Assembly: GCA_964016885.1 (NCBI GenBank)
Contig: OZ024748.1
Location: forward strand, 58,962,001 to 59,026,000
Direction: 5' to 3'
From: Eledone cirrhosa
Lineage: Eukaryota
DNA length: 64,000 nucleotides
Of this stretch, positions 1 to 19,420 are shown in pieces. The notes below the pieces were generated by a model. It saw only the letters and a list, made by a program, of their open reading frames with translations. It was not told where the DNA came from and searched no databases. Numbering within the stretch: the stretch's first letter is position 1; every line of letters begins with the position of its first letter. A program made the position numbers and the translations under genes.

Positions 1-504
1 TCGTATAGGTCACATTGACACGACCAATAATTCCATGGAAAGGTGACGCTATCCTACTAAGGTTGTACATATTTGTTTATATCTTTTTCATGGTATCCTT
101 TTTTTTATTTTTATTATTATATTTTATTTTATTTCATATATTTATTATTATTATTATTATTTTTGTTTCTTAACATTCGGTGGAACTTAATCTTTAGAGA
201 ATACGTTGTTCGTGTCAACAACATAAAACTGACCAAAATTCAAAAGTTTCTTGTCAGAGAATATTTAATGTAAAGAATTTATATACGAATTGTTTATTGA
301 AACTGTCTGAATACTCTCACCATGCAAATCCCCTTGAACACAACACTTTCAATCATAAAATTTGGTCATATTTCATTTTCTAGTATTGTGTAAGTCAAAC
401 TGAAGTGAATAGGTGCAACCATACTGATTTCAAAATCTCTTATATATAATGGGAATTCAACAAACCAGATATAAACTTTCGCAGTACAATCTAGCATTAT
501 TATT

Positions 505-1330
505 GGGGTCGATAAAATAAAGTACCAGTAATGCACTGGGTAATTGCTGGCCTTGTGCCTAAAGTAGAAACAATTATTATTAAAGTGGAGTTATGGTCTG
601 AGTTCAAATCCCGCCAAGGTTAACTTTGCCTTTCATCCATACGGGGTCGATAAAGTACCAGTAATACACTGGGATAATTGCTAACCTTGTGCCAAAATTA
701 GAAACAATTATTATTAAAGTACCAGTAATGCAATGGGATAATTGCTGGCCTTGTGCTAAAAGAAGAAACAATTATTTTTTATGGATTCTGAGTTCAAATC
801 CCGCCGAGGTTAGCTTAGCTCTTCATCCTTGCGGTGTCGATAAAATAAAGCACCAGTAATGTACTGGAGTCGATTTAATCGATTTCCCCCTCCCCTTCAA
901 ATTGCTGACCTTGGGTCTAAAGTCGAAGCAATTATTATAGATTGGTAGTGTCGTTAGAACGTCGGACAACATGCTTTGTTATGGTATATAGTTATGGCCA
1001 TTTATGTTCCGAGTTCGAATCTAGCTGAGGTTACCTTAGCTTTTCATCCTTATTGGTGCGATAACCAGTAATGTACTGGGGTCGATTTAAGCGACTTTCC
1101 CACCCGCAAAAATCGTTGGCCTTACATCTAAGTCAGAAATGATTATTATTATAGATTGGCAGGATCGGTAGAGCATCAGACAACATGCTTTATTATAGCA
1201 TATAGTTATGGCCATTTACATTCTGAGTCTAAATCCCTCCGAGGTTAGCTATGCCTTTCAGCCTTACATGGTCGATAAAATAAGTACTAGTAACGCACTG
1301 GAGTCGATTTAATCGACTTTGCCTTTCCTT
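505..1330 (+). mobile_element. Tandem cluster of ~5 tRNA-derived SINE copies (Meta-domain-like body)
   Basis: Repeated GAGTTCAAATCCCGCCGAGGTTAACTTTGCCTTTCATCC..GGGGTCGATAAAATAAAGTACCAGT (pol III B box GTTCAAATCC); some copies have an A-box-like head TGGCAGNATCGG; tails AGAAACAATTATTATT. Confidence 0.85.
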
Positions 1331-1674
1331 TCAAATTCTTTGCCTTGTGCTAAATGTAATGTTGTTGATGCTGCCAGTTGCGTTCACTCTGAACATCAAG
1401 CTACTATAAAACCATGTCTTCAGATATTCACCAGACAACGTAAAGTTCCATCTACCAAGGTAGACGTGCTTTCTGTAGTTTTACAAGATTTATTATTAAA
1501 AAAATCTTAGCCATTTGTTGATATTTTCAGACAATGTAGCGAGTGGTTGTATTATAGCAGGAATTACTATTATTTCTCATAAACAATATATTAATAATAG
1601 AAATATATATCTTGCAAATATAACTGAAATATATTTTGTGCATAACAATAACGTTTTGGCGCTACTCTTTTAGC

Positions 1675-1748
1675 TTTCCGCTGATAACCATAACAGGCTT
1701 GTTGTGTTTTTACTGCAAGCGTTAGAAACACAGCCTTGTGTCCGGAAA
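1675..1748 (+). ncRNA. Type I hammerhead ribozyme motif, variant core CUGAUAA
   Basis: Stem I TTTCCG/CGGAAA; core CTGATAA 1681-1687; stem II TAAC..GCTTG/CAAGC.GTTA; GAAA 1725-1728; stem III ACACA-gcct-TGTGT; GUC site 1740-1742. Confidence 0.65.
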
Positions 1749-1772
1749 ATATTTATTTAATATATGTATATG

Positions 1773-2050
1773 AGGCGGAAAATTGGCAGAGTTGTTAGAA
1801 CGTCGGATAGAATACTTTGTGTTATTCATTTCCTCTCTCAGCTCTCTGAGTTCAAATCCCACAAAGGTCAACTTTGCTTTTCATCCTTTTGAGGTTGATA
1901 AAAAAAAAAGTACCAGTCAAGTACTGGGGTCGGTTCTTATTCTCGATATCTCCTTCTCACTACCATTCCCTCACTCTTTATCCTTCTCTGGAAGTAATCT
2001 GTTGTGTTCAAACCCGGAGATGGATTGGCTCCACCAGGTTTAAAAAATGC
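1773..2050 (+). mobile_element. tRNA-derived SINE with extended 3' tail
   Basis: TTGGCAGAGTTGTTAGAACGTCGG head, GAGTTCAAATCCC, same body; tail TCTGGAAG..GGCTCCACCAGG recurs at ~23120, ~24870 (minus) and ~27060. Confidence 0.75.
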
Positions 2051-2184
2051 CCCTACGACTCCCTCAAGGGTGATGGGACCATGAAAGCATATCCTTACTT
2101 ATGTCATGACATTCATTTTCTAGCGTCCTTTTATTTCAGCCATCATTCTGTTTTACTATATTATTGCTCTTAGGGCAATGTATT

Positions 2185-2350
2185 TGCAGAATCGGCAGAG
2201 CGTCAGACACCATGCTTTGCCGCATAGCGTTACAGTCTTTTACATTCTGAGTTCAAATCCCGGCGATGCTAGCTTTGCCTTCCATCCTTACGGGGTCGAT
2301 ATAATCGACTTTCCCATTCCCACAAATTGTTGGCACTGTGACTACATCAA
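2185..2350 (+). mobile_element. tRNA-derived SINE
   Basis: Head + GAGTTCAAATCCCGGCG + GCCTTCCATCCTTACGGGGTCGAT. Confidence 0.8.
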
Positions 2351-2964
2351 AAACCAGTATTCTAATGCCTGAATCGACAAAAGTAGGGCATGGAAAAATG
2401 ATGAGATTTAACCCATCAAAAAGTTTTGGTTTCTTTTTTGTTATTATTTAACTTCTACCTACTATAACTCATCTCTGAACTTACAATAAGTGATTACAGT
2501 AAAATTCTGTTTTATATGTATTTATTATTTAAGACTGATGTTAATTTTGTTTCTTGTCATTGCCTTTTATTTTATTATATTTTATTTTACTTTTTAAGTT
2601 ATAATATTAACTGACTACTGTTAACTCGGTTAACTCGTATAATGACTGGTATAATTAGCTGCTTATTTCGCCGCCAAGTAGAACTGTTAAGAATCATAAT
2701 TGTAGCATTATTTTCAACTAAACACAAAACATAAGGAAACAAAAACACACGGAATTGCGATTTACATAGGGTTAAAATGTAGAACAAATTATTATGCAAC
2801 TTGCGAAAATGAAATATGAAGAGAAGGTCAGATATATTTTGTAGTTCCGTTGTAAATCGCCTTGCTGAAAAAAGATGGAAAGGGTTGAAATAGTAAAAGG
2901 GAAAACAGCACTGAATTTTATACTTTGATTGGGACGGGGGATGAGGATCTTCTTCAGCATTGCA

Positions 2965-3230
2965 CTGCTTAGAGTTCAAATCCCAGCGATGTAGATTTCA
3001 ATTTTACAACGGAACTAATTAGATATGTATCTGTAATAAGAAATTATTTTCGTTGTTTTTCGAGTTCAAATCCCAACGGGCAGTTTTCGATTTTCCCCAG
3101 GATCAATAACATATGGATCTGTAATAAGAAATCATTTTCGTTGATTCTAGAGTTCTGCACCCAGTGGTGCATATTTCGCCCCCCTCCCCCTTCCCCCGGA
3201 CCAATAAGATATGTATCTGTAATAAAAAGA
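2965..3230 (+). repeat. Degenerate ~75-bp tandem repeat (3 units) derived from SINE B-box region
   Basis: GAGTTC..CCCA...ATCTGTAATAAGAAAT recurs at ~2972, ~3062, ~3150. Confidence 0.55.
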
Positions 3231-3397
3231 AATTCTCTTTTTCCATTGTTTAGAAGGTGGGAGTGTGTGTGTGGCAAGTTGTCAATATTTTATAGAAAAG
3301 ATGCAGATATTTTGTGTGGTTAAGAATCTCACTCCACGACGACGTGGTTTAAGGTTCCATTCCATAGGCATCATGGTTTAGTGTGTTTTATATACCA

Positions 3398-4256
3398 CTA
3401 GCAGAATGGCCCGGCGTTGCTCGGGCTTCTAAACATAGATTGCCATTTTTAGCCCTCCTTTCTGAAACAGTTTCGTCGTATGTTCATCAATTGATGCAAA
3501 AGTCCTAATAAAAAGTGAAGTCACCTTGGGTGAATAGGCAAATAATTTTCCTTTAAGATTTTTCAAAAGCATGTAATTGCGTTCCCTCTCTTTTTTGTTG
3601 TTGTTTTTGCTGGTGTTGGTGTGATAGTGGCCGTTGGTCGTACTACTAACACGGTCTCGTCCTTCTTCAACCAATCGTGTAAATCCCCTTCTGCCTCGCC
3701 AGCAATGAGAACAATATTTGCTCTAGGGTTCTTATATATTTGATATATATTTATCCTTATAGAGCCTCGTGAAATAAATATGTTTGTTTATATTTTGTTA
3801 TTGTGTATGCAAAAATATCTGTACACGAATATATAATTATATATATATATATATTAAAATAACAGATTAAAGTTTAAGCGAAGAATCGCTGCTTTCACCC
3901 TTAACGCGATCTTCTGAAACTAAAAAAAAAATCGATCTGTGAACGCAGAAGTAAATATTTCGAAAAACGTTACACACCATATATATACACTCTATATATA
4001 CATATATACACACAGTGACATAATGTCGTAATGCAGGCAGCCAGACATACAGACAGATATTATGAGGGCGCGACGTTATAGCTATTTAATGCGGTCCCTA
4101 GGGCATTGAAAATTTGAAATATTTTTTTGCTCAAAACACTCACACAACCATAAGTATTACATGTGTAAAGTTTGAAAAAAATCGGTTGGGTGGTTCTCGA
4201 GTTTTAGGGAGTCAGACAGACAGACAGACATACATTCTCTGTTTTAGATATATAGA
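3398..4256 (-). mobile_element. Non-autonomous Helitron (copy 1), carries a PLE/HHR fragment
   Basis: Minus strand starts TCTATATATCTAAAAC followed by (GTCT)n; ends CCCGAGCAACGCCGGG hairpin + CTAG followed by T. Confidence 0.8.
3871..3921 (-). ncRNA. Hammerhead-like motif, family D (core CAGAAGA)
   Basis: Minus: AGTTT CAGAAGA tcgc-gttaa-gggt GAAA gcag..tcgc TT AAACT; homologous to 46411-46460. Confidence 0.5.
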
Positions 4257-4933
<677 letters not shown>

Positions 4934-5744
4934 TAACCACGCATCGAATAATGTATTGCAAATGAGATTTGGTACATGGAAACTGTGTAGATGCCTGACA
5001 GTGTTTTTTGGTGGTGAGAGGCATAATGCATCACCTAGTTTAACACGACCACCTGAACTTTGAGCTTCTTCAATGGAGAATCTACTCTTGTAAGCATTCA
5101 GGCTTCTCTTCAGGCTAATTTAAGAAGTATTGTTAAACAGATGTTTACTTGTGTAGAAAGGATTCTGTCAACGACCGTGTGAATCATAAAGAACTCACCA
5201 CCGCCCTCCTTTCACCAGGAAGAGAAAGAAATTCCCTTCTGTTCACAGTGGATATGGTGAAGCAAGTTATGTGGTAGACGTGACAACGAAGACTGATGAC
5301 ACATCCATTTCTTTTTGGTTAAGTCCTCGTCGAGGTTTTCAAGTATGTTTGTTTGGGTTTTTTTTTACCTTGAAGATGAAGGTAAAGAGGAAGGCGCTGT
5401 CCACCAGTAAATTTGTTGAACGATGGGTGAGAGTTGCGAACATTTCCCGAGTGAATGAGTCTACCCTAAGTATGGGTATGCACACCGAGAAATGACAGAT
5501 GAGGGAGGGCACTTGCCCTTCATGCACATGGTAAACCAGGATTTCCAGAGTTCATCGATTGGTCCTACGTAGCGATTAATTCTATTAAGAAATTTTCGTT
5601 GCTGGTAATTTTTTAGCAATACCTTGTTTTTATTTTCTGTTCACTCCTGGTACATTGTGGGTATGCAATTACCCACAATGCTGTAGTTTGGTCTTTGTAT
5701 CTTTTTGCCTCATGAATAATTTATCATTATTGTTAGTATATACC

Positions 5745-6400
5745 TTTTACGTTCCGAGTTCAAATCACACTGCGGTTAGCTTTTTCTTTCATTCTTACGG
5801 GGTCGATAAAATAAAGTACCAGTAATGCACTTTCCCCTCCCCAAAAATTGTTGGCCTTGTGCCTAAATCAGAACCATTGGACTGGCAGTATCGATAAAGG
5901 GTCGGACGCCATGCTTTGTAGCATAGTTATGCCCCTTTACGGTCTGAATTCAAATCCCGCCGAGGTTAACTTTGCCTTTCATCCTTACGGGGTCGATAAA
6001 ATAAAGTACCAGTAATACACTGGGTAATTGCTGGCTTTGTGCCTAACGTAGAAACAATTATTAGTATTATTATTGGATACCTTTTACGTACCGAGTTCAA
6101 ATCACGTTGAGGTTGGCTTTGCCCTTCATTGTTATGAAGTCGATAAAATAAAGTACCAGTCACACACTGGGGGCAATTTCATAGTTTTTCCCCTCCCGCT
6201 AAAATTGTTGGCCCTATGTATAAATCAGAAATCATTATCATTAGCGGATTAAGCGCAGGATTGGCAGAGTCGTTAGTGCATCGGACTTTACATACTGTTA
6301 AAGTCCCGCTGAAGTTAATTTTGCCTTTAATCCTTTCTGGGTCGATAAAATAAAGTATCAAATATCTAAATTTCTGACCTTGTGCCAAAGTTAGAAATGG
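5745..6400 (+). mobile_element. Cluster of 4-5 tRNA-derived SINE copies
   Basis: Repeated GTTCAAATC..GTCGATAAAATAAAGTACCAGT units. Confidence 0.8.
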
Positions 6401-6789
6401 GTTGACAGAAGCGTAAAAACTTGGTTAAAATGTCATTATCCTAGGGTGACGAGTCGGCAAAATCAGGAGTACCCCGGGGGGGGGGGGGGGAATATACACT
6501 GGCGTATTTCTTAGGGCCAAAATAATCAACATTCCCCCTTCCCCCAAAGTTGTTGGCGTTTTGCCAGTTTTAGAACGAATTATTATTATTGTCGTTTGGT
6601 CACGTCGCAATATTTCGTCTCGATAAAATGTTAAAGATCAAAATAAATAAATAAATAAATAAATAACAAACCAATATATAGTTTAGAAAGAAAAAGTGAA
6701 AAGGGGGAAAATAACAGAAATTAATTTCAAATTAACTTGCCAAAAATGAACAGAACTTACAAAGAGTTAATTGAAAACATCGGAGAAGG

Positions 6790-7150
6790 AGTAGGTGGTG
6801 GGTGAGGAGGATGGATGGGAAGAGGGTAGGAGGAAGAGGGACAAAGGAGCCAAACAGAAGCAAAGAAAGAAAGGGAGAAAGAAAGCTAGTAAGAAAGAAG
6901 GAAATAGAGTAGAAGGAAGAGAGGAAAAAAAAAACAAAAGGCAGAAAGTAAGAAAGAAAGAAAAAAGGCAGAAAGAAGGAAAGGAAGAAATAAAGAAAAG
7001 AGGAAAGACGGGAGGGAGGAGAAAAACGAAAAAGATAGATAAGGAGAAACATAGAAAGAAAGGACGAGGAAAGGGAGGAAGAACGAAGAAGTGAAAGAAA
7101 GAAAGAGGAAGAGAGAGAGAGAAAGAAGAGGAGAAAGATAAAGAACTGAT
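6790..7150. repeat. Purine-rich (GA/GAA) low-complexity tract
   Basis: Composition. Confidence 0.8.
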
Positions 7151-7451
7151 AGGAATATGTAAGAGAAACTGAAACGTGCATACGAACCAAGCGAGACAAT
7201 AACAGGCACTTAAATGCAGTTGAGTAGTGGAAAGGGGTCAAAGCGCTAAAAGCAGGTCGTTGACATGGCAGTAAAATGTCTAGGTTATAATCTGACGAGG
7301 CTGTGGTGTTTACATTTGCTGCTGTTCAAAGATAACAAGATAACGGACAGGTAGATAAACGGTGATGGTGATAGCGACGGAGAATAGAATCGAAGGAAAG
7401 CGACTCGTTTTCGAATCTCGATTAAGATATTTGTTAACCGATATTTTTTAA

Positions 7452-8320
7452 CATAAATATAAGTATGTATACGTACATACATATATGTATACAGACGTAC
7501 AGTAGTATGTATATACACACATATATATATGTACGTATGGGTTTACCGAACATTTATTATAATATTCGGTTTGTTTGTAAACAAACAGCCCGAATTAAGC
7601 TGTACAGTGTTCGGCAACCATCGTTGCCCTTTTGTTCAACACTGAACAAAAGCGCAGCTTATTAGCTGTCATCAGCATCGTATACCTTCCTGTCAGTCGA
7701 TTGAACGTTTGAAAGTATATACTTTCCTTATGCATATTAACGGCTGAGCAGCCTAATTTGCATATCGAGTGAGTTAGTCGGCCGGGCGTACCGAAAATGA
7801 TAAATGGAAAAAATGAAATTTCATTTCTCACTCTTAGTACGGCTGATACTTAAATATAAGTAGTTATACGTACATACATATATGTATACAGACGTACAGT
7901 AGTATGTATATACATATGTGTACGTATGGGTTTACCGAATAGCCGTTAATATGCACAAGGAAAGTATATACTTTCAAACGTTCAATCGACTGACAGGAAG
8001 GTATACGGTGCTGATGACAGCTAATAAGCTAGAAACTAGTTCATCGTTCCTATGTCAGTGTTGAACAAAAGGGCAACGATGGTTGCCGAACACTGTACGC
8101 CTTAATTCGGGCTGTTTGTTTACAAACAAACCGAACATTATAATAAATGTTCGGTAAACCCATACGTACATATATGTATATACATACTACATACTACTGC
8201 ACATATATATGTATATACATACTGCTGTACGTCTGTATACATATATGTATGTACGTATACATACTTATATTTAAGTATCAACCGTACTAAGAGTGAGAAA
8301 TGAAATTTTATTTTTTTCCT
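7452..8320. mobile_element. Non-coding HHR-bearing repeat, family A, locus 1 (partial tandem + inverted copy)
   Basis: 7452-7940 unit with partial direct repeat from ~7802, inverted copy 7941-8320; homologous to 43495-44290 and 62440-63450. Confidence 0.85.
8005..8047 (+). ncRNA. Minimal type I hammerhead ribozyme, family A
   Basis: ACGGTG CTGATGA c AGCT-aata-AGCT a GAAA CTAG T T CATCGT: stem I 6 bp, palindromic stem III ACTAGT, GUU site. Confidence 0.8.
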
Positions 8321-8341
8321 TTTAACATACATATATATATA

Positions 8342-8490
8342 TATTAAAATAACAGATTAAAGTTTAAGCAAAGAATCGCTGCTTTCACCCTTAACGGGAT
8401 CATCAGATGATCTCGTTAAGGGTGAAAGCAGCGACGCTTTGCTTAAACTTTAATTTGTCATTTTAATATTTGCTCTATGGTTTTATATCT
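8342..8490. mobile_element. Inverted repeat of family D (PLE terminal repeat) fragment
   Basis: Arms 8342-8404 / 8406-8468 centred on GATCATC-A-GATGATC; matches 46416-46505. Confidence 0.75.
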
Positions 8491-8502
8491 CTCTCTCTCT
8501 CT

Positions 8503-8667
8503 GTATGTATGTATGTATGTATGTATGTATGTATGTATGTATGTATGTATGTATGTATGTATGTATGTATGTATGTATGTATGTATGTATGTATGTATGT
8601 ATGCATGCATGCATGCATGCATGCATGCATGCATGTATGTATGTATGTATGCATGTATGTATGTATG
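8503..8667. repeat. (TATG)n/(CATG)n microsatellite
   Basis: Direct reading. Confidence 0.95.
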
Positions 8668-9009
8668 TCGGGTCACCAGTTGGTGCTACTGGTAACATGT
8701 ATCCCAGTACAACCTGTCTCATGGTCGGGTCATTGGCGACTAAACTGGCAACCCCACCAAGGTTTCTTGGTGAGGAGAGTGACTTTGGACATCCTGCATG
8801 ACTAAAAACAAAACCTGTCAAAGGGCAAAGGAGCTCTTAAGAGTCAATGGCCATCCAAAATCACCGGGAGAGATGACCCCTTAGCCTTTGTCAAGGCAGA
8901 GTTCTAGAAGGAAAACTCTGATATAACACCTGCAACCCTGATGGTATCCAATGATGTTGACTTGTTCTTCTTTTTGGTAAATATCATCTTGGTTAAGAGA
9001 GTGGACCTG

Positions 9010-9445
9010 TACCTTTCATTCTTACGGGGGTCGATAATATAAAGCACCAGTAATGCACTGAGGTAGATTTAATCGACTTTCCCCCCTCCCCAAATTGCCA
9101 GCCTTGTGCCTATATAAGAAATCATTAAAATTATTAAGGGTAGTGGATTGGCAATATTGGTAGACCTTCGGTCAGCATGCTTTGCAGCAAATATTAACGC
9201 CCCTTTGCGTTGTCAGTTCAAACCCGCCGAGGTTAACTTTTCCTTTCATCCTTACGGGGTCGATAAAATAAAGCACCAGTAATACACTTGGGTCAATTTA
9301 ATTGATTTTCCCCTTTCCCCGAAATTGTTGGTCTTATCCCGCCGAGGTTAACTTTGCCTTTCATCCTTACGGGGTCGATAAGATAAAGTACCAGTAATGC
9401 ACTGAGATAATTGCTGGCCTTGTGCCAAAAGTAGAAACAATTATT
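9010..9445 (+). mobile_element. Cluster of 3 tRNA-derived SINE copies
   Basis: Same body motif as 505-1330. Confidence 0.8.
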
Positions 9446-10669
9446 AAACTGGGGTTTGGAACATCACTCAAAACTTATTTCATAAGCTGAAAACGTGGAC
9501 GACTAAAATAGAGAATGTTAAACCCAGTTAAGAGCAGCTTTTTACATCCTGAGTTCAAATCCTGTATCATTTTACTTTTGCAACATAACAAGCCATGATA
9601 ACAGTTAAGGAGGTGAAGGTGGGTGACGATATTGAAACCAAAGCTACTGGGTCTCGAACCTTCGTTAAAGTATTTTAGCATCACATGACTGAGAACACAA
9701 CACTCCTCTCTAGACAGGACGCCAGTTCGTCATAGTTAACCGCACAGCTGCTTCTGAAACTCACTTTGGTTTTCATTTTATCTGATTAGACTGAAGCTAT
9801 GTGAAATGAAGTGTCTTGCTCAAGGATACAACGCACCCCGTGGTGTCAGTACAGAGCCGACTATATTCTAATCACTAGACATTGTCTCTCTACTCGTCAT
9901 GATGTGTCAACTAAATTTCTGAGGGCATTTTATTAGACAAGAACTGTCTATCGCAGTGATGGGAAGGGACTATTCCTATTTTGGGGTCACAGACCTAAAC
10001 CATCACCCGGTTTAGCACCGCCTCCTGATCTTTTGGTGTGCAGTGAGAATTATTCCTATTTTGGAGTGGTATACTTAAACCATCACCTGGTTTACTACCA
10101 CAATCACCTATCTTTGGTTGTATTTAGCGAAATCCACTCTGTTGAAAGTATTTGAACCTCATCTCTGGCCTGAGAATAACATTCTCTTTTCCTCCACTGG
10201 TCTAGGAGGTGTCCATGAAGATCACGAGCGCTGCCCTATCTTCTCTGACCAAGTCATAAGAAAACATGAAAACATTATAGATATAATAGGCTTGGATGCA
10301 GGATATTTTAATGTTTAAGGTTTTCACCTCGCAATCATTAGGTCCCAAGTTCAATCCTACTCTGTGGAATCTTGGGCAAGTGTTATTTACCATAGCCGTG
10401 AGTCGACACATGCCTTGTCTGTGAAACTGGATAAACTCATTGGATGGTTGTCAGGTCGACTGTATTATTTGCAGTTCAAAAGGGCCACGTTTCTGTAGAA
10501 TTCTCAGACACTTATATGTTAATTTCATGAGTAGAATGTTTCGCTGATCGAAAGAAATGAAACATTCTTCGCCGAAACCACCGGAGATCCTTTCCATTAT
10601 AGAGCACATTGTAATAACAACCCATCAATCCTTCCTCCCCCAAGAGTGTCAGTAATGAAAGGGTTAAAA

Positions 10670-17856: not shown

Positions 17857-18039
17857 AGCGGTGGATTGTCAGTATCGGTAGAGGGTCTAACGCCATGCAT
17901 TGCAGCAAAGAGTTACGGCCCTTTATGATCTGAGTTCAAACCCCGCCGAGGTTAACTTTACCTCTCATCCTTACGGGGTCGATAAAATAAAGTACCAGTT
18001 ATACACTGGGATAATTGGCCTTGTGCCAAGAGTAGAAAC

Positions 18040-18070
<31 letters not shown>
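17857..18070 (+). mobile_element. Full-length tRNA-derived SINE with (ATT)n tail
   Basis: Head, B box, body, (ATT)n. Confidence 0.85.
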
Positions 18071-18975: not shown

Positions 18976-19059
18976 TATGGAACTCTCTTAACCTTCTTTT
19001 AATTTCTTCTTTATTATATATATATATATATATATAAATGTAATGAGTTTTTCGAATAT

Positions 19060-19420
19060 TAATAATAATATTCGATTCGTTTGCAATTATGCAAACAAGC
19101 CTCATTTTTAACGCCATGTCAGTAGAATGAACCCTTCCTTCTTGCTCTTGTATTGGCATGTAAACAGAACTGGAGACACTAATGTTTCTGGGTATTACCC
19201 TTCATCAGTACAGCTCACAGTTCACCTGCCAAACTGTCAGAGCTAGTGAAAATATATGCTATTTTCGAAAAGATACAGTGACTGACGGCCTGATTTGCAT
19301 ATTAGCAGACTGGCTGATCAGTCAGATCTGCATATTAGCTGATCCACTGATCAGCCAGATTTGCATATCAGCAGACTGGCCAGTCAATTTACGCGTGAAT
19401 TTACTATTATTACCATAATG
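19060..19420 (-). mobile_element. Short repeat with HHR-like core and three 33-bp octamer-bearing units
   Basis: Minus: CTGATGA a GGGT-aat-ACCC a GAAA at 19186-19208; ATTTGCAT at 19293 and 19359, ATCTGCAT at 19326. Confidence 0.5.

What the first reader, a model, noticed from the sequence alone, without database searches (positions are those of the whole stretch)
19178..19385. Octamer - AT hairpin - hammerhead architecture shared by two otherwise dissimilar families
Seen: on the HHR-sense strand ATATGCAAATYRGGC lies 80 nt (43875), 72 nt (63183) and 84 nt (19293) upstream of the core, also at 7756. In the 19.3-kb, 7.7-kb and 43.8-44.0-kb copies a palindrome lies between them (GAAAGTATATACTTTC; GAAAATA..TATTTTC). 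Here the octamer unit is triplicated at 33-bp period. Known: ATGCAAAT is the POU/Oct site and the distal element of snRNA-type promoters. Inference: these elements carry their own POU-responsive promoter just upstream of the self-cleavage site. Stem I of the 19.2-kb motif is not convincing.
Basis: partly seen in the sequence, partly recalled or inferred. Interest (0 to 1): 0.7.

Follow-up and report, generated by a model that had tools for sequence, protein, structure and literature searches.

The report
Ribozyme retroposons carrying borrowed U6-class promoter
This is a worn copy of a very common small repeat whose "octamer" box matches the box in front of this animal's own U6-class RNA genes and whose AT palindrome is likely a TATA box, so the repeat likely carries its own promoter next to a predicted self-cutting RNA.

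Summary
Observation confirmed; interpretation partly right. 19034-19390 (-) is a 360-nt partial copy of a 438-nt hammerhead repeat (retrozyme type). Its "octamer" is a 12-nt box (TATGCAAATKAG) found at -76 to -79 in 7 of 7 host U6-class promoters examined (U6 x3, U6atac, MRP, tRNA-Sec x2) and in 0 of 7 U1/U2/RNase P promoters. Box plus hammerhead core occurs 29,676 times in the genome (reversed control 3). The two families are not dissimilar but diverged relatives. Across 11 subfamilies box, TATA and ribozyme core are 93-95% alike, flanks 43-53%. The TATA sits 41-43 nt after the box, against 46-48 in host genes, and units contain T5-T7 or several T4 runs that would stop Pol III. I therefore favour a re-spaced promoter whose productive, read-through transcripts are Pol II. 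No RNA run was listed; transcription, polymerase, bound protein and cleavage are untested. Precedent: newt satellite 2 (snRNA-type promoter). The scan reached a U6-type-promoter reading before on other DNA of this genome (two notes); the spacing shift and terminator conflict were not in the lines of those notes that I saw.

The parts
19034..19390 (-). Family B copy: 360 nt of a 438-nt unit, 95% identical to the family consensus, 5'-truncated, 3' end at an ATTTA word followed by (AT)n; one ribozyme only
19288..19380 (-). 33-bp repeat (2.8 copies) carrying three boxes: 19359-19366, 19326-19333 (ATGCAGAT variant), 19293-19300
19290..19301 (-). Ribozyme-proximal box matching the host U6-class proximal element (17.3 bits; host leave-one-out 13.7-21.9)
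19248..19266 (-). AT palindrome containing the TATA-like hexamer (19252-19258), 42 nt after the box in this copy
19224..19228 (-). Predicted transcription start, inferred from box+77 or TATA+30 in the family consensus; not observed
   Evidence: inference from host geometry
19167..19216 (-). Predicted minimal type I hammerhead: core from 19208, 4-bp stem II with an A.A mismatch at its base, short near-palindromic stem III, GUC site (cut after 19175), stem I with one substitution at 19173
43493..43969 (-). Family A copy (1.1 units): box 43875-43882, palindrome 43830-43845, hammerhead core from 43794
43968..44290 (+). Inverted, 5'-truncated family A partner; box cut away, palindrome and hammerhead (44041) kept
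7451..7916 (-). Family A copy, box 7756-7763, hammerhead broken by a deletion
7941..8324 (+). Inverted family A partner without box, hammerhead at 8011
62866..63451 (-). Subfamily A' copy (1.4 units), box 63183-63190, hammerhead core from 63110, 8 nt shorter between TATA and core

Best explanation
The stretch is a partial copy of a high-copy hammerhead repeat of about 430-470 nt whose box matches the host's U6-class proximal promoter box, and the repeat likely works as a self-promoting retrozyme. Shown: circularly permuted, tandem and inverted copies; the box; a TATA-like hexamer 41-43 nt behind it; a hammerhead fold; 3' ends at ATTTA before (AT)n. Inferred cycle: in a tandem copy the box and TATA start transcription 3-29 nt before the ribozyme core. 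The polymerase reads through the T-run and the next promoter. Two hammerheads (likely as a dimer) cut out one unit, which likely circularises and is pasted into (AT)n by a Penelope-type reverse transcriptase. The promoter is inherited only through such read-through RNA, and Pol III would stop at the T-runs, so the productive polymerase is likely Pol II. The 4-5 bp shorter box-TATA spacing would be the change that favours it. This copy has one ribozyme and a damaged stem I, so it is likely a dead end.
For: Box at -76..-79 in 7 of 7 host U6-class promoters and 0 of 7 U1/U2/RNase P promoters (best score 4.0 bits). Of 97 hammerhead calls in 890 kb of evenly picked DNA plus the window, the box occurs only in 5 related clusters (21 calls); the 75 scored calls of the other 16 clusters reach at most 6.1 bits. 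Search without the box: 24 of 27 hits that reach the box position keep the octamer within 1 mismatch; 2 of the 3 misses are inversion junctions. 11 subfamily consensuses: box 0.93, TATA 0.93, core 0.95, flanks 0.43-0.53. TATA-like hexamer, not part of the search pattern, at +42..44 in 32 of 50 older copies and at +46..48 in none. T-runs inside units: A T6, B T4+T6+T5+T4, A3 T7. T6 gives full termination in human cells (PMC5725217); human type 3 promoters also recruit Pol II, more so when the TATA is mutated (PMC6023835). Copies of 1.3-2.9 units and arrays of 20 or more. Circular units fold far below shuffles, z -6.8 to -14.
Against: No transcript, start site, cap, circle or cleavage was observed. 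The box is the Pol III-class one; the host's own Pol II snRNA genes use other elements. The host distal element TTACCTCCCTT is missing from 48 of 50 older copies. The argument for Pol II borrows human termination data. Pairing in stem I runs to about -35, past the predicted start, and the TATA lies in a hairpin, so RNA structure also shapes this region. Families A, B and G have a mismatch at the base of stem II. Five of the 11 subfamilies were found by a pattern that required box and core, and all consensuses were built from box-bearing copies. The fold z-scores are inflated by internal palindromic microsatellites. No autonomous partner element was identified.
Confidence: 0.55

Rival explanations
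1. A true U6-type Pol III unit: box and TATA recruit Pol III, which makes a 200-330 nt ribozyme-headed RNA ending at the T-run; rare read-through, or host Pol II transcripts, supply the unit-length RNA for mobility.
For: The box is specific to Pol III-class host genes. The first T-run of 4 or more lies 201-338 nt after the core, upstream of the next promoter, in A, A', A2, A3 and B. A TATA is kept.
Against: T-run avoidance is not significant (P 0.21-0.30 against dinucleotide shuffles; A-runs are as rare). Spacing is 41-43 nt against 46-48 in all 7 host genes. Terminated RNA would lack the promoter, so it could not explain why the box is kept. 5' ends of copies do not gather at the predicted start or cut site.
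Confidence: 0.25
2. The box is an RNA-level signal (for the reverse transcriptase, a ligase or folding) and the TATA palindrome is only a hairpin of the circular RNA.
For: Hairpins around the TATA differ in sequence but still pair in A, B, C and D; the B triplication folds back on itself.
Against: It does not explain a 12-14 nt match to host promoters in the same orientation with a TATA behind it. The box keeps no fixed pairing across families. The GAAA/TTTC arms are absent in E, while the TATA is kept.
Confidence: 0.1
3. A POU-responsive enhancer or tissue-specific element, boosting transcription from elsewhere rather than setting a start site.
For: The core is the canonical octamer. Extra boxes arose by duplication at 21, 32, 33 and 41 nt spacing, near multiples of a helical turn (4 cases).
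Against: Fixed orientation and fixed distance to a TATA are properties of a core promoter; the same box is proximal in housekeeping RNA genes.
Confidence: 0.07
4. Chance: an ancestral word spread by copy number, with no function.
For: Copies are not independent; within family B the box is no better kept than its flanks (0.97-0.98 against 0.95-0.98).
Against: 10 of 12 box columns are invariant across subfamilies whose flanks are about 50% alike. Neutral decay after insertion predicts the flat within-family pattern.
Confidence: 0.03

Closest known systems
Metazoan non-LTR retrozymes (Cervera and de la Pena 2020, PMC7229834, passages read; Li et al. bioRxiv 10.64898/2026.07.22.740005, parts 1-3 of 5 read)
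   Same: Small non-coding units with a type I hammerhead, as monomers to long tandem arrays, strongly self-paired, proposed to be moved by Penelope-like elements.
   Different: The passages read name no internal promoter. Here a host-type box and TATA are conserved; copies are mostly dispersed, often inverted, and end at (AT)n. Circles are not shown here.
Newt satellite 2 (Coats et al. 1994; paper not held, known from its title and the citing passage in PMC2220036; octamer-plus-PSE detail recalled)
   Same: Hammerhead tandem repeat with an internal snRNA-type promoter, transcribed by Pol II.
   Different: Here the box is of the host's Pol III (U6) class, proximal, and paired with a TATA at shortened spacing; an invertebrate-type genome; no homology tested.
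Schistosome Sm-alpha repeats (passage in PMC6765202)
   Same: Hammerhead repeat whose promoter ends up at the 3' end of the cut unit, so tandem copies are needed.
   Different: Reported as Pol III and SINE-like; the promoter here is of the gene-external type.
Penelope-like element pLTRs (PMC4209133 and PMC6765202, passages read)
   Same: Minimal hammerhead with short palindromic helix III, promoter upstream of the ribozyme serving the next copy, tandem layout.
   Different: No open reading frame; no autonomous element with this pLTR was found.
Type 3 Pol III promoters (U6, U6atac, MRP, tRNA-Sec of this genome)
   Same: Same 12-nt box, same orientation, TATA downstream.
   Different: Box-TATA spacing 41-43 against 46-48 nt; distal element mostly absent; the promoter lies inside the mobile unit.

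Membership tests
Non-LTR retrozyme | Small non-coding unit with a type I hammerhead fold | tested here: met
   427 and 438 nt units; core, stems I-III and NUH site in 11 of 11 subfamily consensuses; no Rfam hit at gathering score in the window
Non-LTR retrozyme | Tandem copies with two or more ribozymes | tested here: met
   Arrays of A and C, partial dimer of B in L009; the copy at 19.2 kb itself has one
Non-LTR retrozyme | Self-cleavage and circular RNA | not testable with these tools
   No RNA holder listed
Non-LTR retrozyme | Derived from or moved by a Penelope-like element | tested here: inconclusive
   Inverted 5'-truncated pairs and fixed 3' ends fit. PLE-like ORF pieces are common by recalled motifs, but Pfam named none of 6 and none was tied to this ribozyme
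Type 3 (U6-class) Pol III promoter | Proximal element matching the host's | tested here: met
   16.8-21.3 bits against host leave-one-out 13.7-21.9
Type 3 (U6-class) Pol III promoter | TATA box at the host spacing | tested here: not met
   41-43 nt in 11 of 11 consensuses against 46-48 in 7 of 7 host genes
Type 3 (U6-class) Pol III promoter | T-run-free transcribed region ended by a T-run | tested here: inconclusive
   Pattern present but P 0.21-0.30
Type 3 (U6-class) Pol III promoter | Distal element | tested here: not met
   A TTACCTCCC-like word within 200 nt upstream in 2 of 50 older copies; younger families read by eye only
Type 3 (U6-class) Pol III promoter | Pol III-dependent transcription | not testable with these tools
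   Needs inhibitor or occupancy data
POU/Oct-responsive element | Binding of a POU protein | not testable with these tools
   Core equals the recalled octamer consensus; no binding data; flank preference not confirmed from papers (listing only)

The most novel reading that the evidence does not exclude
A retrozyme superfamily captured the host's U6-class Pol III promoter and shortened the box-TATA spacing by 4-5 bp, switching it to read-through Pol II (or dual) use, so that tens of thousands of dispersed, self-copying snRNA-type promoters now sit in the genome and spacing alone sets polymerase choice.
Probability: 0.35. Interest if true: 0.75.

Novelty: new variant of a known kind. Interest (0 to 1): 0.52.

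Why it matters
How animal retrozymes get transcribed is largely open; internal promoters are reported for newt and schistosome repeats. This gives a precise, mutable candidate promoter conserved over 11 subfamilies, a natural test of how box-TATA spacing selects Pol II or Pol III, and about 30,000 copies that could bind snRNA-gene factors. It also defines this animal's U6-class promoter box, useful for expressing guide RNAs.

Tried and rejected
Rfam: 0 hits at gathering score; the E-value list showed only microsatellite-driven miRNA matches among the 150 of 693 rows listed. T-run avoidance as a Pol III signature: not significant; family C could not be included because my pattern found no tandem units there. 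'Start site coincides with the 5' end of stem I': dropped, since pairing extends to about -35. Convergence of A and B: rejected. Within-family conservation of the box: flat, uninformative. Autonomous partner: the PLE-like ORF beside family C in L117 and the RT piece behind a D-like copy in L303 are insertion junctions, not shown to be pLTR-ORF units. In one search the row 'D2' was a duplicate of B by error and was dropped (11 rows). The six window box scores printed are off by one base and were not used. Primary newt papers (Coats 1994, Cremisi 1992, Luzi 1997) are not held. Literature searches (listings) showed no paper on a U6-class promoter in retrozymes or on a cephalopod U6 promoter; the library lacks most subscription papers, and no supplements were read (those of the 2026 preprint are closed and could hold such promoters).

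Full report
OBSERVATION. The window comes from a 3.0-Gb animal genome. ATATGCAAAT occurs 5 times, all on the minus strand, against 1.03 expected. The palindromes and the 33-bp repeat (2.8 copies, 73% matches) are present. Rfam has no hit at gathering score, so the ribozyme calls are from my own scan.

WHAT THE ELEMENT IS. The 19.2-kb stretch has 1,436 first-look candidates in the genome and the 43.8-kb stretch 2,341; 40 of each were scored. Flanks of the fetched loci show circularly permuted units of 438 nt (B) and 427 nt (A), as partial tandems and inverted 5'-truncated pairs. 3' ends gather at ATTTA or T-run words followed by (AT)n (A: unit positions 251 and 302; B: 176 and 215); 5' ends are scattered (many short A hits there are microsatellite noise). 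The finding itself is 19034-19390, 360 nt, 95% identical to the B consensus. Its stem I is weak through one substitution; the family has 8 proximal pairs. All 11 subfamily consensuses keep the core, a short mostly palindromic stem III and an NUH site, with different but pairing stem I sequences. That fits the minimal, dimer-acting hammerheads described for Penelope-like elements (PMC4209133, passages) and non-LTR retrozymes (PMC7229834, passages; bioRxiv 10.64898/2026.07.22.740005, parts 1-3 of 5). A, B and G have a mismatch at the base of stem II, so activity is not assured.

WHAT THE OCTAMER IS. I fetched the host's own small-RNA genes. Three distinct U6 promoters, U6atac, MRP and two tRNA-Sec genes all carry TATGSWAATKAG at -76 to -79 and a TATA 46-48 nt later (7 of 7). 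Ten further U6 and seven further U6atac copies lack both and look like retrocopies; they were not counted as promoters. Four U1, two U2 and the RNase P promoter score at most 4.0 bits against 13.7-21.9 in leave-one-out. The repeat boxes score 16.8-21.3. In 89 evenly picked 10-kb stretches plus the window, 97 hammerheads fell into 21 clusters; the box was found in 5 clusters (21 calls, lacking where copies are truncated) and the 75 scored calls of the other 16 clusters reached at most 6.1 bits. Of 25 sites of 16 bits or more in the sample, at least 21 lie in these repeats, by eye. Genome-wide, box plus core occurs 29,676 times against 3 for the reversed pattern; this measures copy number, not independent origins.

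ONE CLADE, NOT TWO FAMILIES. A second pattern gave 606 mostly older copies. They define subfamilies that bridge A and B: G is 76% like A and 55% like B, while A and B are 49% alike. Across 11 subfamily consensuses the box (0.93; 10 of 12 columns invariant), the TATA (0.93; 4 of 5) and the core (0.95; 6 of 7) stand out from flanks at 0.43-0.53. Five subfamilies were found by requiring box and core, and consensuses used box-bearing copies, so two unbiased checks matter. The TATA was never required, yet it lies at +42 to +44 in 32 of 50 older copies and at +46 to +48 in none. A search with box-less queries gave 27 hits reaching the box position, of which 24 keep the octamer within one mismatch; 15 more were truncated before it. 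Within family B the box is no better kept than its neighbours, as expected for copies that decay after insertion.

HOW IT LIKELY WORKS. Host geometry puts the start 3-29 nt before the core, so the promoter lies outside its own transcript and can be inherited only if RNA runs through the next unit and is cut twice. The same logic is described for schistosome repeats and Penelope tandems (PMC6765202, passages). Units carry T-runs: T6 in A, T7 in A3, T4+T6+T5+T4 in B, T5 or T6 in C and D by eye. In human cells T6 terminates Pol III fully (PMC5725217, passages), and type 3 promoters also recruit Pol II, more so without a working TATA (PMC6023835, passages). Insect Pol III promoters keep PSE-TATA spacing tightly (PMC1761439, passages); a 4-bp Pol II/Pol III spacing difference in Drosophila is recalled, not read. 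The repeats' 41-43 nt spacing therefore fails the host U6 standard, and I infer Pol II as the productive polymerase, as reported for newt satellite 2 (citing passage in PMC2220036; the primary paper was not held). Against this: the box is the Pol III-class one, and the first T-run does sit late in the unit, though not significantly so (P 0.21-0.30). The TATA lies in a hairpin and stem I pairs past the predicted start, which points to added selection on unit-length RNA. Circularisation and Penelope-type insertion are inferred from anatomy; a U6atac retrocopy joined head to head with a B copy (L144) fits RNA-based insertion. No partner element was identified. No RNA run was listed.

NOVELTY. A hammerhead repeat with an internal snRNA-type promoter is known from newts. 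A U6-class proximal box with a re-spaced TATA, kept across a whole retrozyme clade, did not appear in my searches (listings only). Two earlier notes of this scan on other pieces of this genome reached the U6-type-promoter reading; I recorded mine before seeing them, and they are not independent support. Verdict: real feature, new variant of a known kind, promoter likely, polymerase open. Interest 0.52.

Noticed in passing
L088, L089, L090, L140, L209, L210, L211 (upstream 100 nt): This animal's Pol III type 3 genes have an octamer-containing box at -77, while U1/U2 use AATTAAAT near -90 and TCAGTRG near -55; most share TTACCTCCCTT near -260.
   Followed up: partly
L148 (G000:C24:12936134): The RNase P RNA gene has the U1/U2-type promoter elements rather than the U6-class box, which hints at Pol II transcription.
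   Followed up: no
window 8406-, 11342-, 15326-, 18914+, 21630-, 29745-/29883+, 40043+, 53037-: Further hammerhead-like cores of other repeat families; those scored lack the box.
   Followed up: partly
window 44744-45220 (+): ORF piece with a recalled Penelope-type GIY-YIG motif, similar to an ORF in L117; Pfam gave no family.
   Followed up: partly
window 47035-47934 (+) and 54981-55616 (-): Reverse transcriptase fragments (PF00078) of non-LTR type.
   Followed up: no
L144 1200-1620: U6atac retrocopy joined directly, head to head, to a family B copy.
   Followed up: no
L257, L266, L290 and family B: Separate box duplications at 41, 32, 21 and 33 nt, near multiples of a helical turn; only four cases.
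   Followed up: partly
L268, L283: Old copies with a word like the host distal element 33 and 70 nt upstream of the box; may be a relic of promoter capture or chance.
   Followed up: partly
G000:C1:5738350-5751969 and C1:14044559-14050763: Homogeneous head-to-tail arrays of family C (466-469 bp units), candidate source loci.
   Followed up: no
window 500-9450, 17890-18050: Many copies of an abundant SINE-like repeat; very long (AT)n tracts at 30128-35935 and 56158-62188.
   Followed up: no
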